Below, piece after piece: positions 6,020 through 27,360 of a DNA stretch of 29,547 nucleotides. The translations under genes and the position numbers were made by a program. The stretch covers positions 1 to 29,547 of the IMG/VR virus record IMGVR_UViG_3300033521_000021; one strand, written 5' to 3'. How positions within the stretch are numbered: position 1 is the stretch's first letter; every line of letters starts with the position of its first letter. Below the pieces are notes generated by a model. That model was given only the letters and a program-made list of their open reading frames with translations. It made no database searches and was not told the origin of the DNA. This DNA comes from a virus. Its lineage: Duplodnaviria > Caudoviricetes.

Positions 6020-6023
6020 TGAG

Positions 6024-6095
6024 TGGGAAATCACAGATTCGAACTGTGGACCATCTCCGTGTAAAGGAGGCACTCTACCACTGAGTTAATCTCCC
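6024..6095 (-). tRNA. tRNA-Val(TAC)
   Basis: Loop TTTACAC, canonical arms. Confidence 0.93.
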
Positions 6096-6097
6096 AG

Positions 6098-6245
6098 AGG
6101 GGAAGTATTAGAGGACTTCCCTATACGACTATCAGAATCAGATATTTCTAACCCTGATAGAAGGTGATACAGTACTGAAGTAATTTACTGACTCCCCACA
6201 GGCATCAATAACACTTTCAGTAAAGTTGGCAGATATTTCTACCAA
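6098..6245 (-). ncRNA. Candidate structured ncRNA, four hairpins, between tRNA-Ser and tRNA-Val
   Basis: Two stems capped by identical TAGAAATATCTG; G-U pairs favour the minus strand. Confidence 0.6.
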
Positions 6246-6331
6246 AGGAAGGTCAGGGATTCGAACCCTGGGAGGCTACTAACCTCAATAGTTTTCAAGA
6301 CTATCACCATAAACCACTCGGTCAACCTTCC
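6246..6331 (-). tRNA. tRNA-Ser(TGA)
   Basis: Loop CTTGAAA, long variable arm GAGGTTAGTAGCCTC. Confidence 0.93.
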
Positions 6332-6401
6332 AATTTGATGGATTAGGTGTGATATACCTCATAAGGATATAACAGGGACCTAACCTCTATCTAGTTATGT
6401 A

Positions 6402-6632
6402 TCAGACTTGAATAGGAACAAGAACACTATTATTCTTGAGTTTGGCAATCAGTTTACCAACACTCTCAGCAGTGCGAATTTGTTCTTCAACACTTTGAAG
6501 ATTATCACATGCAAAAACATAAGACTTATCAAGATTGCTATGATAAGTTACACCAACTTGATTTTCATCATAATCAAAAGAAACTTCAGAGATAGCAGAA
6601 GAATCAACATTGAGAGTAACAGAAACAGACAT
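6402..6632 (-). CDS. Small protein with KTSC-like features (SSAISEVSFD...GVTY...Y...SVGK)
   Basis: Loose resemblance to the KTSC-domain pattern. Confidence 0.55.
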   Translation of the reverse strand: MSVSVTLNVDSSAISEVSFDYDENQVGVTYHSNLDKSYVFACDNLQSVEEQIRTAESVGKLIAKLKNNSVLVPIQV

Positions 6633-10833: not shown

Positions 10834-10906
10834 TAGAGAGTGGTTGGATTCGAACCAACTACTGAATGCATTATCTGCGTGCCTTATCCCTTTGGCTTCA
10901 CTCTCT
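10834..10906 (-). tRNA. tRNA-like element with undetermined, aberrant anticodon arm
   Basis: Perfect acceptor (A)GAGAGTG/CACTCTC(T), perfect T arm GTTGG-TTCGAAT-CCAAC, D arm GCC...GGC; no canonical 5-bp/7-nt anticodon arm. Confidence 0.65.
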
Positions 10907-19215: not shown

Positions 19216-20400
19216 TTATATGGATGGATCTATGTATGTGACTGCTATTGTGGAATCTCCCAAAGCAATGCCTTTCCAATTATTTCCTCCAGCAAATGTT
19301 GTAACTGGACTATTTCTTTGAGTGGTATTATTAATTCCAAGTTGCCCATAAACATTATTCCCCCAAGTCCACAAAGTTCCATCAGTTTTTACTGCTCCAG
19401 AATGTCTATATCCACAATCAACTTGTTTCCAATTATTTCCTCCAGCAAAAGTAGTGACTGGTGTTGGTCTATTAGTAGTATCATTTACTCCCAATTGTCC
19501 AAAATTATTACGACCCCAGGTCCATAAAGTTCCATTAGTTTTTATTACAGCAGACATATCTTGTGATCCACCAGTATTTGCGGGTCTTTTCCAATCATTT
19601 CCCCCGACAGATGTGGTTACTGGTGTTGGTCTATTAGTAGTATCATTGACTCCTAGTTGACCATAAGCATTTCCCCCCCAAGTCCATAAAGTTCCATCAG
19701 TTTTTACTGCATTGACAAAATTTATACCACAACTAATTTGTTTCCAGTTAATTCCTCCAGCAAATGTAGTGACAGGTGTAAGTCTATCTGTTGTATTATT
19801 AACTCCTAATTGACCTCTAAGATTGTCTCCCCAAAGCCACAGAGTTCCATCAGTTTTAACTGCTGCAACAAAAAAGTTTCCCCCACTAACTTGTTTCCAG
19901 TTAGTTCCTCCAGCAAAAGTAGTGACTGGTGTTGGTCTATTTGTGGTATTATTAATCCCCAATCCCCCATAAGCATTACGTCCCCAAGTCCATAAAGTTC
20001 CATCTGTTTTAACTGCTGCTGAATGGTTCCCTCCACAGTGAACTTGTTTCCAGTTAGTTCCTCCAGCAAATGTAGTGACTGGTGTTGGTCTATTTGTTGT
20101 ATCATTAACTCCTAATTGCCCATAAGCATTCAAGCCCCAAATCCACAAAGTTCCATCATCTTTAATGCCCGCATAATGATCTGCCCCACCTGATATTGTC
20201 CTCCAGTTTGCTCCACCAGTAAAAGTTGTGACTGGAGTGGTTCTATTTGTTGTTGTTCCTGAAGCATTAATTCCCAATTGACCAAAATCATTACGTCCCC
20301 AAGTCCATAAGTTCCCAGTTCTAAAAGCATCAGCAGGTACAAAAACATCATCAAAGGAATATATCAATCCATTTTGTGTGTAATTGTAAAAAGTAGGCAT
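19216..20400 (-). CDS. RCC1/BLIP-II repeat 7-bladed beta-propeller protein C
   Basis: 7 x WxWGxNxxGQLG...[15 protein letters not shown]...AVKTDGTL. Confidence 0.92.
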   Translation of the reverse strand: MPTFYNYTQNGLIYSFDDVFVPADAFRTGNLWTWGRNDFGQLGINASGTTTNRTTPVTTFTGGANWRTISGGADHYAGIKDDGTLWIWGLNAYGQLGVNDTTNRPTPVTTFAGGTNWKQVHCGGNHSAAVKTDGTLWTWGRNAYGGLGINNTTNRPTPVTTFAGGTNWKQVSGGNFFVAAVKTDGTLWLWGDNLRGQLGVNNTTDRLTPVTTFAGGINWKQISCGINFVNAVKTDGTLWTWGGNAYGQLGVNDTTNRPTPVTTSVGGNDWKRPANTGGSQDMSAVIKTNGTLWTWGRNNFGQLGVNDTTNRPTPVTTFAGGNNWKQVDCGYRHSGAVKTDGTLWTWGNNVYGQLGINNTTQRNSPVTTFAGGNNWKGIALGDSTIAVTYIDPSI

Positions 20401-24232: not shown

Positions 24233-24239
24233 TATTTAG
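24233..24239 (-). promoter_or_regulatory. T4-type late promoter-like box
   Basis: CTAAATA about 23 nt upstream of ATG 24210. Confidence 0.45.
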
Positions 24240-25474
24240 ATACCTTGTAGATCGTCTGAAGTTTTTATTGCATATGTATTATATGTACTACAAGCAATTT
24301 GTTTCCAGTTGGTTCCTCCAGCAAATGTAGTAACTGGAGTTGTTCTGTTGGTGAAGGTATTAATTCCCAACTCACCATCATTATTGTATCCCCAAGTCCA
24401 TAGAGTTCCATTAGTTTTTATTGCTGCTGTATGAAAAACACCAGAAGCAACTTGTCTCCAGTTATTCCCTCCAGTAATTGTTGTGACTGGAGTACACCTT
24501 CCTGTAGTGTCTCCAGCAACATTAATTCCCAGCTGTCCTTGATTATTACGTCCCCAAGTCCATAAAGATCCGTCAGTTTTGATTGCTGCACAATTCCATT
24601 CATTTGCAGAAACTTGTTTCCAATTAGATCCTCCTATGAATGTTGTAGTTGGAGTGGTTCTGATTGTTGCATCTCCAGCAGTATTGACTCCCAATTGACC
24701 ATATCTATTAAGTCCCCAAGTCCAAAGAGTTCCATCAGTTTTTACTGCTACTGTGTGTCCATATCCACAAGCAACTTGTTTCCAATTAGTTCCTCCAGCA
24801 AATGTTGTGGTTGGAGTAATTCTTGTATTTCTGTCATTAACTCCTAGTGCCATATAAAAACTATTTCCCCAAGTCCACAAAGTTCCATTAGTTTTTATGG
24901 CAGATACGTGTGCAGTTCCAACTGCAACTTGTTTCCAATCAATCCCCCCTATAAATGTAGTCACTGGAGTGCTTCTATTATTTGTTGCCCCAGCAGCAAC
25001 ATTAATACCTAATTGTCCATCATTATTAGATCCCCAAGTCCACAAGGTTCCATCAGTCTTAATTGCTGCTACACTAAAAACACCACAAGCAACCTGTTTC
25101 CAGTTAGTCCCTCCAGCAAATGTAGTGACTGGAGTTGTTCTGTATGTGGTGGCATTAATTCCCAATTGAGCAAAATTATTGATTCCCCAAGTCCACAAGG
25201 TTCCATCAGTCTTAATTGCTGCTGCAAATGCAAACCCAGCAGAAACTTGTTTCCAATTTGCTCCTCCAGAAAGTGTTGTAGTTGGAGTAGCAGAATTTGA
25301 TGTATTATTATTTCCAAGTTGTCCAGAATTATTATATCCCCAGTTCCACAATTCTGGTGTAATTAACTGATTGGCAATTTGTGGATATACTGACATCAAA
25401 TATTCTTTGGTAATTAATTTATTGCCTAGATCAGTACCAAAAGAATCTCTGAAATTAGTTGTTGGGTTTGGCAT
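24236..25474 (-). CDS. RCC1/BLIP-II repeat 7-bladed beta-propeller protein B
   Basis: 7 RCC1 repeats, some with loop insertions (VAAGATNN, TAGDAT). Confidence 0.92.
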   Translation of the reverse strand: MPNPTTNFRDSFGTDLGNKLITKEYLMSVYPQIANQLITPELWNWGYNNSGQLGNNNTSNSATPTTTLSGGANWKQVSAGFAFAAAIKTDGTLWTWGINNFAQLGINATTYRTTPVTTFAGGTNWKQVACGVFSVAAIKTDGTLWTWGSNNDGQLGINVAAGATNNRSTPVTTFIGGIDWKQVAVGTAHVSAIKTNGTLWTWGNSFYMALGVNDRNTRITPTTTFAGGTNWKQVACGYGHTVAVKTDGTLWTWGLNRYGQLGVNTAGDATIRTTPTTTFIGGSNWKQVSANEWNCAAIKTDGSLWTWGRNNQGQLGINVAGDTTGRCTPVTTITGGNNWRQVASGVFHTAAIKTNGTLWTWGYNNDGELGINTFTNRTTPVTTFAGGTNWKQIACSTYNTYAIKTSDDLQGI

Positions 25475-26163: not shown

Positions 26164-26171
26164 TATTTATG
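26164..26171 (-). promoter_or_regulatory. T4-type late promoter-like box
   Basis: CATAAATA upstream of ATG 26150. Confidence 0.5.
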
Positions 26172-27360
26172 AAATAAACAGGGTAGAATCAGTTCCTGAT
26201 GTGACTGCTATTGTATGGGAAGCTCCACCTCCACTAGCAACTTGTTTCCAGTTAGTTCCTCCTGCTAATGTAGTGACTGGAGTATTTCTCTGAGTTATAT
26301 CATTAACTCCTAGTTGTCCATTAGTATTAAGTCCCCAATTCCATAGGGTCCCATCAGTTTTGATTGCTGCTGTATGGTTAGTTGCACCAGTAACTTGTTT
26401 CCAGTTTGATGATTGCGTAAATGTTTGAACTGGAGTAGTTCTTGTATTTGTATCGTTGACTCCTAATTGTCCATTAGTATTAAGTCCCCAAGTCCATAAA
26501 GTTCCATCAGTCTTGATTGCTGCTGTATGGTTAGCTCCACCAGTAACTTGTTTCCAGTTAGTTCCTCCTGCAGAAGTTTGAACTGGAGTACATCTTTGAA
26601 TTGTATCGTTGACTCCTAGTTGTCCATTAGTATTACGTCCAAAAGTCCATAAGGTTCCATCAGTTTTGACTGCTGATGTATGATTAGTTCCATTACCAAC
26701 TTGTTTCCAGTTAGTTCCTCCAGCAAATGTAGTGACTGGAGTGGATCTACTGGTTGCTGTGTTGTCTCCCAATTGTCCATAACCACCCTGCCCCCAAGCC
26801 CACAAAGTTCCGTCAGTTTTAATTGATGCTGTATTATTAGCTCCACTAGAAACTTGTTTCCAGTTAACTCCTCCAGCAAATGTAGTGACAGGTGTAAGTC
26901 TATCTGTTGTATTATTAACTCCTAATTGTCCAAAATTATTACGTCCAAAAGTCCATAAGGTTCCATCAGTCTTGATTGCTGTTGTATGAAAATTCCCACA
27001 AACAACTTGTTTCCAATTGTTTCCTCCTGCTAATGTAGTGACTGGAGTGGATCTACTTGTTGTATTATTAGTTCCTAGTTGCCCATAACTATTAAGTCCC
27101 CAAGTCCATAAAGTTCCATCAGTCTTGATTGCTGCAGTATAATTAGCTCCACCAGCAACTTGTTTCCAATTAGCTCCACCGACAAGTGTGGTGGCTGGAG
27201 TGGATCTATCAACAATTGTATTGTTTCCTAGTTGTCCATTAGTATTACGTCCCCAAATCAATAAAGTATCACCAACCCACTGGTCTATTAACCAACTCTC
27301 ATCTACAAAATAATCCTCCAGATCACCTTCTGGAGATAAAAACTGATTAGGTCTGGTCAT
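26167..27360 (-). CDS. RCC1/BLIP-II repeat 7-bladed beta-propeller protein A
   Basis: 7 RCC1 repeats; start overlaps the fibre gene stop region, GGAGG RBS. Confidence 0.92.

What the first reader, a model, noticed from the sequence alone, without database searches (positions are those of the whole stretch)
6098..6245. About 150-nt four-hairpin RNA with twin UAGAAAUAUCUG caps between two tRNAs
Seen on the minus strand: (1) TTGGTAGA-AATA-TCTGCCAA; (2) long stem TACTGAA..TTATTGAT..loop..GTCAGTAA..TTCAGTA; (3) 14-bp CTATCAGGGTTAGA-AATA-TCTGATTCTGATAG; (4) GGGAAGT-N8-ACTTCCC. Stems 1 and 3 share the same 12-nt cap on different lower stems. Their G-U pairs would be A-C mismatches on the other strand, which fixes the orientation. 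The element fills the tRNA-Ser/tRNA-Val gap, so tRNA processing would release it. Inference: a stable phage ncRNA with two protein-binding loops (decoy, antitoxin-like or scaffold). I cannot assign it to an Rfam family.
Basis: partly seen in the sequence, partly recalled or inferred. Interest (0 to 1): 0.75.

Follow-up and report, generated by a model that had tools for sequence, protein, structure and literature searches.

The report
Swappable hairpin array between cyanophage tRNAs
The 150 bases between two tRNA genes of this virus, which likely infects cyanobacteria, are predicted to fold into four RNA hairpins that are interchangeable modules recurring in many related viruses, and because sister arrays carry a stand-alone copy of a host antitoxin-type RNA, the array likely serves as a set of decoys against host defence proteins (untested).

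Summary
Observation confirmed; interpretation partly supported. The tRNA-Ser/tRNA-Val gap (6096-6245, minus strand) folds into four hairpins (z = -5.6; plus strand -1.3) and has no Rfam match. It is not one fixed RNA. In sister phages the same gap is 0-233 nt and holds different module combinations; the twin cap occurs only in this lineage. The cap itself is a real, uncatalogued motif (F): 86 of 101 viral matches lie at one fixed distance after a tRNA, mostly tRNA-Asn, and 10 of 13 stem pairs covary. Hairpin 4 (G) and hairpin 2 (B) are further covarying modules. New here: sister arrays hold solo abiF RNAs whose flanks match an RNA upstream of Abi_2 toxin genes in Cyanobiaceae (10 of 18 loci), while 0 of 5 phage records carry the toxin. 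Best reading: tRNA processing releases a multi-module decoy RNA (0.45). Against it, no host counterpart was found for F, G or B, and no discrete transcript is shown. This scan noted the same kind of array before on other DNA, function unknown.

The parts
6402..6632 (-). 76-aa ORF conserved directly upstream of tRNA-Ser in the clade; weak lead to KTSC-like fold
   Evidence: 116 homologues; PHROG 4357, unknown function; no Pfam hit over cut-off; Atlas row at score 0.87 with KTSC on 11% of members, a lead only
6337..6391 (-). Module E, a further conserved hairpin of the same kind, upstream of tRNA-Ser
   Evidence: lies inside the Ser-Val gap in L078; 48 of 402 spacers, some shared with abiF
6246..6331 (-). 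tRNA-Ser(TGA), no encoded CCA; 5' boundary
6226..6245 (-). Hairpin 1: clade-typical slot-1 closing stem carrying only the 12-nt F tip (cap 6230-6241)
   Evidence: sisters have the same stem with other or no tips; leave-out profile fits the 12-nt core but not the F stem
6173..6222 (-). Hairpin 2: module B, long interrupted stem with conserved tip GAUGCCUGUGGGGAG
   Evidence: 10 distinct copies, 4 of 23 pairs with double changes; 9 of 10 in Ser-Val gaps
6161..6172 (-). Single-stranded linker with AUCACCUU, one letter off the 16S rRNA 3' tail; only partly conserved
   Evidence: host tail from G035; linkers of 10 B spacers
6129..6160 (-). Hairpin 3: full module F, 14-bp stem, U-G / R-Y / G-C / A-U tip and AAUR tetraloop (cap 6139-6150)
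   Evidence: best leave-out profile score in the window, 24.5 against next 9.2
6100..6121 (-). Hairpin 4: module G, variable 7-bp stem with conserved loop CCUCUAAY
   Evidence: 23 copies, 100% of cells paired, 6 of 7 pairs covary; 36 of 402 spacers in 13 tRNA contexts
6023..6095 (-). tRNA-Val(TAC); 3' boundary

Best explanation
The gap is a string of interchangeable, sequence-conserved RNA hairpin modules (F tip, B, F, G) placed between two tRNA genes, which tRNA processing would likely cut out as a small RNA whose loops likely act as decoys that bind and block host defence proteins. Shown: the fold, covariation, the wide spread of F and G in cyanophage tRNA spacers, module swapping between sister phages, and that one module of sister arrays (abiF) copies an RNA found in front of Abi_2 toxin genes in the likely host family while the phages tested lack that toxin. 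Inferred: co-transcription with the tRNAs, release by a 3'-trailer nuclease and RNase P, protein binding, and that F, B and G have defence proteins as partners. The second F tip would double the dose of one decoy.
For: Strand-specific fold. F: 95.1% of cells paired, 10 of 13 pairs covary, score 0.536 against 0.230 shuffled and at most 0.149 slid; stem base varies while the tip is fixed. F caps found in 10 of 190 spacers fetched without the F pattern; 7 in the 173 spacers up to 200 nt against 0-1 in 20 shuffles. One F copy per genome in 3 of 5 records. G: 6 of 7 pairs covary under a fixed loop. Gap of 0-233 nt with shuffled modules, as expected of accessory cargo. abiF in 13 of 402 spacers, sharing a spacer with modules C and E in 3 architectures; Rfam abiF over cut-off in S-CREM1 and G002. 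Host side: 4 of 151 Cyanobiaceae genomes give abiF hits, 4 of 4 in front of Abi_2 ORFs; Abi_2 in 19 of 331 genomes, 10 of 18 loci examined have the RNA with the same flanks as the phage copies; Abi_2 in 0 of 5 phage records, 3 of which hold abiF RNA. abiF-motif RNA neutralises AbiF in trans (abstract of 10.1101/2025.04.15.648962; passages of PMC13064643); phage RNA antitoxin mimicry has precedent (passages of PMC3475682).
Against: The window's own element holds no abiF, so the link is by association. No host counterpart was found: F model 8 of 151 family, 2 of 125 genus, 6 of 151 phylum genomes, all weak (at most 26.9 bits) and coding, terminator-like or without the cap; G model 2 of 151 and 4 of 125, none a true loop match in a spacer; B model 0 of 151; C core 4 of 301, all in reading frames; no F, G, B, C or E core upstream of the 18 Abi_2 loci. 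These searches scored only 35-60 candidates per genome. The host abiF hits are under the Rfam cut-off (29-33 against 37 bits). F is far more widespread than a patchy toxin would suggest and nearly always starts at a tRNA 3' end, which also fits a processing role. Two of the abiF-bearing phage records are incomplete (51%, 82%). No discrete transcript is shown.
Confidence: 0.45

Rival explanations
1. The hairpins are cis-acting processing or stability signals: nuclease recognition sites or barriers that control cutting and half-life of the tRNA precursor and downstream mRNA.
For: F begins right at a tRNA 3' end with a fixed 13-bp stem in 86 of 101 matches, 80 after tRNA-Asn; most module-bearing spacers start with U; the four window tRNAs checked lack an encoded CCA.
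Against: Sisters run the same two tRNAs with gaps of 0-2 nt. The full F of this window sits 85 nt inside the gap, and its tRNA-Asn has none. More than ten different conserved loops, abiF among them, fill the same slots.
Confidence: 0.2
2. The modules bind phage proteins or host housekeeping RNA-binding proteins (scaffold or sponge unrelated to defence); the upstream 76-aa protein is one candidate partner.
For: Conserved loops on variable stems; the ORF is always next to tRNA-Ser in the clade; weak KTSC lead; no host RNA counterpart found, as expected for a phage partner.
Against: The ORF is kept whether the gap is 0 or 233 nt and whichever modules it holds; KTSC is carried by 11% of one cluster at score 0.87 only.
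Confidence: 0.17
3. The released RNA acts by base pairing, its C/U-rich G loop or the anti-Shine-Dalgarno-like linker masking ribosome-binding sites.
For: G loop is single-stranded and fixed; the linker is one letter off the host 16S 3' tail.
Against: The linker is changed in 6 of 10 B spacers; the complement of the G loop occurs once on the window's coding strand, inside a gene; F presents only a tetraloop.
Confidence: 0.1
4. One fixed four-hairpin ncRNA whose two identical caps work together.
For: Twin 12-mer is unlikely by chance (2 of 2000); the B-x-G scaffold and its linkers are kept in several sisters.
Against: Twin caps found only in identical copies of this sequence; tips of hairpins 1 and 3 are swapped or lost in all sisters.
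Confidence: 0.05
5. The hairpins are DNA-level elements or neutral recombination debris in a hot spot.
For: Frequent gain, loss and swapping.
Against: G-U pairs and strand-specific fold; 39 of 42 F copies keep a U-G pair and one pair alternates G-C, G-U, A-U; one copy per genome.
Confidence: 0.03

Closest known systems
abiF RNA (Rfam RF03085), RNA antitoxin of AbiF/Abi_2 (PF07751) HEPN toxins
   Same: Small hairpin motif that sits in the same kind of cyanophage tRNA spacer and shares spacers with other modules; annotated in S-CREM1 without a function (passages of PMC9964418).
   Different: F, B and G do not match RF03085 and have no known cognate toxin; not found upstream of 18 host Abi_2 loci.
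Pseudo-ToxI RNA mimic of phage PhiTE (PMC3475682, passages read)
   Same: Phage non-coding RNA that would titrate a host defence protein; dose raised by duplication.
   Different: Pseudo-ToxI is a tandem repeat of one pseudoknot resembling a known antitoxin; this is a mixed array of different hairpins punctuated by tRNAs, with no host original found for the window's modules.
T4 RNA C and RNA D (rnaC, rnaD; small stable RNAs of unknown function in the T4 tRNA cluster, passages of PMC9697503)
   Same: Size (139 and 119 nt against 150), place in a tRNA cluster of a T4-like phage, strong fold.
   Different: RNA C ends in a tRNA-like T-arm and is nearly invariant across 748 records; this element has no T-arm and is mosaic. 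A shared 10-mer is not a cap in RNA C and is not conserved.
manA (RF01745) and wcaG (RF01761) RNAs of cyanophages
   Same: manA fills a tRNA-Leu/tRNA-Asn gap in S-CREM1.
   Different: Single larger motifs proposed as cis-regulators (passages of PMC2864571); no match to this element.
Theta ribozymes next to phage tRNAs (PMC10879173; search listing only)
   Same: Structured RNA adjacent to phage tRNA genes.
   Different: Described as HDV-like ribozymes; this element is predicted as plain hairpins and hits no Rfam ribozyme family.

Membership tests
Rfam cyanophage motifs (manA, wcaG, abiF, PhotoRC) | Covariance-model match at the family cut-off | tested here: not met
   the same scan does find manA, wcaG and abiF in S-CREM1
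abiF RNA antitoxin | abiF core motif in the element | tested here: not met
   absent from 6096-6245; present in 13 of 402 sister spacers
Phage RNA antitoxin mimic | Resembles a host RNA lying beside a cognate toxin gene | tested here: not met
   not found for F, G, B in the genomes searched (limited sensitivity); met for the abiF module of sister arrays
Phage RNA antitoxin mimic | Phage lacks the cognate toxin gene | tested here: inconclusive
   Abi_2 in 0 of 5 records, only some complete; the partner of F, B, G is unknown
Phage RNA antitoxin mimic | Expressed during infection | tested here: inconclusive
   contigs of 4 RNA runs of one study span the F-I-G spacer of L173; DNA carry-over not excluded, no ends or strand
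Phage RNA antitoxin mimic | Binds and neutralises the toxin | not testable with these tools
   needs binding and toxicity-rescue assays
T4 RNA C / RNA D | Lies inside a tRNA cluster of a T4-like phage | tested here: met
T4 RNA C / RNA D | Sequence or structure homology, tRNA-like 3' arm | tested here: not met
T4 RNA C / RNA D | Accumulates as a discrete stable RNA | not testable with these tools
   only contigs were available
Theta / HDV-like ribozyme | HDV-like nested pseudoknot directly after a tRNA | tested here: inconclusive
   position fits; no Rfam ribozyme hit; no pseudoknot-aware search was run
RNA anti-CRISPR (solitary repeat unit; recalled, no call) | Near-identity to a host CRISPR repeat | tested here: inconclusive
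   no Rfam hit and no repeated host hits of the F, G, B models; host arrays not compared directly
Intrinsic terminator | GC-rich stem followed by a U run | tested here: not met
   none inside 6096-6245

The most novel reading that the evidence does not exclude
T4-like cyanophages use their tRNA operons as expression cassettes for a shuffled library of RNA decoys, each hairpin mimicking the RNA partner of a different host defence protein. abiF is the one module whose target is known; F, B, G and ten more would point to undiscovered RNA-controlled defence systems of picocyanobacteria.
Probability: 0.33. Interest if true: 0.88.

Novelty: new variant of a known kind. Interest (0 to 1): 0.63.

Why it matters
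Non-tRNA RNAs in phage tRNA clusters have had no function since T4 RNA C and D. Here they resolve into a vocabulary of short, covarying, exchangeable motifs, one of which copies an antitoxin-type RNA found in the likely host family. That makes the question directly testable in cultured pairs (S-PM2 carries F and G; S-CREM1 carries abiF). If the decoy reading holds, each module is bait for an unknown host defence protein and tRNA operons are anti-defence islands at the RNA level.

Tried and rejected
Twin-cap pattern scans found only identical copies of this sequence and 3 unrelated repeats (4 viral loci; 2 metagenome loci); the exact hairpin-1 16-mer gave 21 loci, 20 without tRNAs. rRNA mimicry: longest shared words of 13 modules with a Cyanobiaceae rRNA operon did not exceed shuffles (lowest p 0.07). 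T4 RNA C homology of the cap: 8.5 bits, E 1.4, lies in a long stem and changes in a relative. Antisense action of F on a host nucleotidyltransferase mRNA: 7 weak hits in one orthologous coding region without the cap. G-model hits inside one coding region of 4 genomes. Anticodon-loop mimicry and late-promoter likeness were considered by eye only and dropped: F folds as a tetraloop and occurs once per genome. The J/K kissing-loop idea was not tested. No structure model of the 76-aa protein was obtained, and phyla outside Cyanobacteriota were not searched with the RNA models. Literature: searches gave no paper describing these modules (121: 0 papers); subscription journals are mostly missing. PMC10690425 (10,006 candidate viral RNAs): passages read; 3 of its 6 text supplements searched for 6 motif words without a hit, the other 3 and 3 oversize files unseen, so some modules may be listed there anonymously.

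Full report
Setting. The window is a 29.5-kb virus record with genes on the minus strand, nine tRNAs and phage-type genes. It has no host marker that I tested directly. The 76-aa ORF upstream of the tRNA cluster has its named relatives in Synechococcus phages (25 of 26 records), and 4 of 5 related records carry photosystem II reaction-centre genes. A T4-like cyanophage is therefore inferred.

Observation. The gap between tRNA-Ser(TGA) and tRNA-Val(TAC) is 6096-6245. It folds on the minus strand into the four hairpins described (z -5.60, 0 of 200 shuffles; plus strand z -1.33). The 12-nt cap occurs exactly twice in the window, and a repeat this long arose in 2 of 2000 shuffles. Rfam gives nothing, window-wide or targeted.

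Not one fixed RNA. Loci fetched through the upstream ORF (17, 35) keep the order ORF, Ser, gap, Val, Pro, but the gap is 0, 1-2, 44, 87, 95-101, 129-130, 140, 150, 155, 171 or 232-233 nt. Sisters keep the closing stems of hairpins 1 and 3 but carry other tips or none. A twin-cap scan found only identical copies, and two caps in one spacer occur in 1 of 402 distinct spacers, the window's own. The 402 spacers come from 324 loci that were mostly fetched with the F and C patterns, so module counts are not frequencies in nature.

The cap is a real motif. A scan for the degenerate cap 10-40 nt after a tRNA T-loop gave 101 viral loci. The distance is exactly 21 nt in 86, and the upstream tRNA is Asn(GTT) in 80. 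The core letters are fixed by the pattern, but distance, stem and context are not. In 42 aligned copies 95.1% of cells pair and 10 of 13 pairs change on both sides (0.536 against 0.230 shuffled, at most 0.149 slid). The U-G pair is kept in 39 of 42, and the next pair is G-C, G-U or A-U. In 190 spacers fetched without this pattern, 10 carry the cap as a tetraloop; 7 in 173 short spacers against 0-1 in 20 shuffles. A profile built without the window ranks hairpin 3 first in the window (24.5 against 9.2), while hairpin 1 fits only in the 12-nt core. So hairpin 3 is a full module F and hairpin 1 is a slot-1 stem with an F tip, likely copied locally (inference). F occurs once per genome in 3 of 5 records. 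S-PM2 has an F-I-G array after tRNA-Thr.

The other hairpins. Hairpin 4 is module G, loop CCUCUAAY on a freely covarying 7-bp stem (23 copies, 100% paired, 6 of 7 pairs), in 36 spacers and 13 tRNA contexts. Hairpin 2 is module B, 10 distinct copies in this clade, 4 of 23 pairs with double changes. Module E lies just upstream of tRNA-Ser (6337-6391) and inside the gap in L078. More than ten modules recur in many orders (F-G-J-K, F-H-I-J-K, B-M-G, C-E-abiF).

A handle on function. One module of these arrays is known. Rfam abiF scores over its cut-off in a tRNA spacer of S-CREM1 and beside a tRNA in G002; the motif is in 13 of 402 spacers, sharing spacers with C and E. An abiF-motif RNA neutralises the AbiF toxin in cis and in trans by direct binding (abstract of 10.1101/2025.04.15.648962; review passages). 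In the family of a Cyanobium genome, abiF hits appear in 4 of 151 genomes, under the cut-off, and all 4 lie directly before Abi_2 ORFs. Abi_2 is in 19 of 331 genomes. Of 18 loci examined (3 fragment loci of the 21 dropped), 10 have an abiF-like RNA about 155 nt before the domain match, with the same flanks and core as the phage copies but a longer inner loop. Abi_2 is absent from 5 of 5 phage records, 3 of which hold the RNA, two of those incomplete. The phage abiF module therefore looks like a solo, shortened host antitoxin, comparable to pseudo-ToxI of PhiTE (passages). The S-CREM1 paper lists the abiF RNA without this reading in the passages I saw.

What speaks against extending this to F, B and G. 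No host original was found. The F model gave 8 of 151, 2 of 125 and 6 of 151 weak hits that are coding, terminator-like or lack the cap. The G model gave 2 of 151 and 4 of 125, none convincing; the B model 0 of 151; the C core 4 of 301, in reading frames. None of these cores lies before the Abi_2 loci. These searches score only 35-60 candidates per genome with phage-trained models, and host abiF itself differs enough to fall under the Rfam cut-off, so the negative is soft. F's strict position at tRNA ends also suits a processing role. rRNA mimicry and homology to T4 RNA C were tested and rejected.

Expression. Contigs of four RNA-seq runs of one study span the F-I-G spacer of L173. This shows presence in RNA libraries only: no ends, strand or level, and DNA is not excluded. 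A sigma-70-like site with extended -10 lies upstream of the 76-aa ORF (6685-6657), but 8 sites were found against 6.4 expected. Release by tRNA processing is inferred from the element abutting both tRNAs and from general knowledge of RNase P and 3'-trailer cleavage (recalled).

Earlier notes. This scan recorded the same kind of mosaic spacer RNA on other cyanophage DNA several times, function unknown. These are unchecked notes, not independent support. They supplied the anti-Shine-Dalgarno lead and pointed again to T4 RNA C/D.

Verdict. A real, uncatalogued, modular RNA array. The twin cap is a local duplication of a widespread motif, not the defining feature. Decoy action against host defence proteins is the best-supported mechanism (0.45), shown by sequence only for the abiF module of sister arrays. 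New variant of a known kind; interest 0.63.

Noticed in passing
window 10835-10906 (-): tRNA-shaped element missed by ARAGORN and Rfam just upstream of tRNA-Arg: T-arm and acceptor stem intact, 5-nt loop in the anticodon position; its start motif occurs in 9 fetched loci and a variant precedes the abiF RNA in G002.
   Followed up: partly
L097 2488-2524, L324 and 15 further spacer variants; host loci L444-L464: Solo abiF RNAs in cyanophage tRNA spacers match an abiF-like RNA upstream of Cyanobiaceae Abi_2 genes that falls under the Rfam cut-off. Deserves a finding of its own.
   Followed up: yes
L082 1884-2116; S-CREM1 (L097 about 2001-2083); DSL-LC03 (L098 about 2001-2085): An 85-nt branched module (D) with an internal 7-nt direct repeat, conserved between this clade and two cultured phages, no Rfam hit.
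   Followed up: partly
L211-L323: Module C (loop AAAGAUAAA) is nearly invariant over about 25 nt; 113 viral loci, 68 spacers in 28 tRNA contexts.
   Followed up: partly
L021 4652-4911: A related phage encodes a cyanobacterial-type, permuted tmRNA at the end of its tRNA cluster.
   Followed up: no
   Followed up: no
L097 1925-1996, L173 1333-1405: tRNA-like genes with a 5-nt GACAA loop in the anticodon position, called His or undetermined by ARAGORN.
   Followed up: no
L099 2141-2472; L102 3112-3315: Protein antitoxin genes are annotated right after tRNA clusters in DSL-LC02 and S-WAM2, in line with an anti-defence neighbourhood.
   Followed up: no
window 19216-20400, 24236-25474, 26167-27360 (-): Three paralogous repeat proteins of about 400 aa among glycosyltransferase-like genes, after a collagen-like fibre gene (names by eye).
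   Followed up: no
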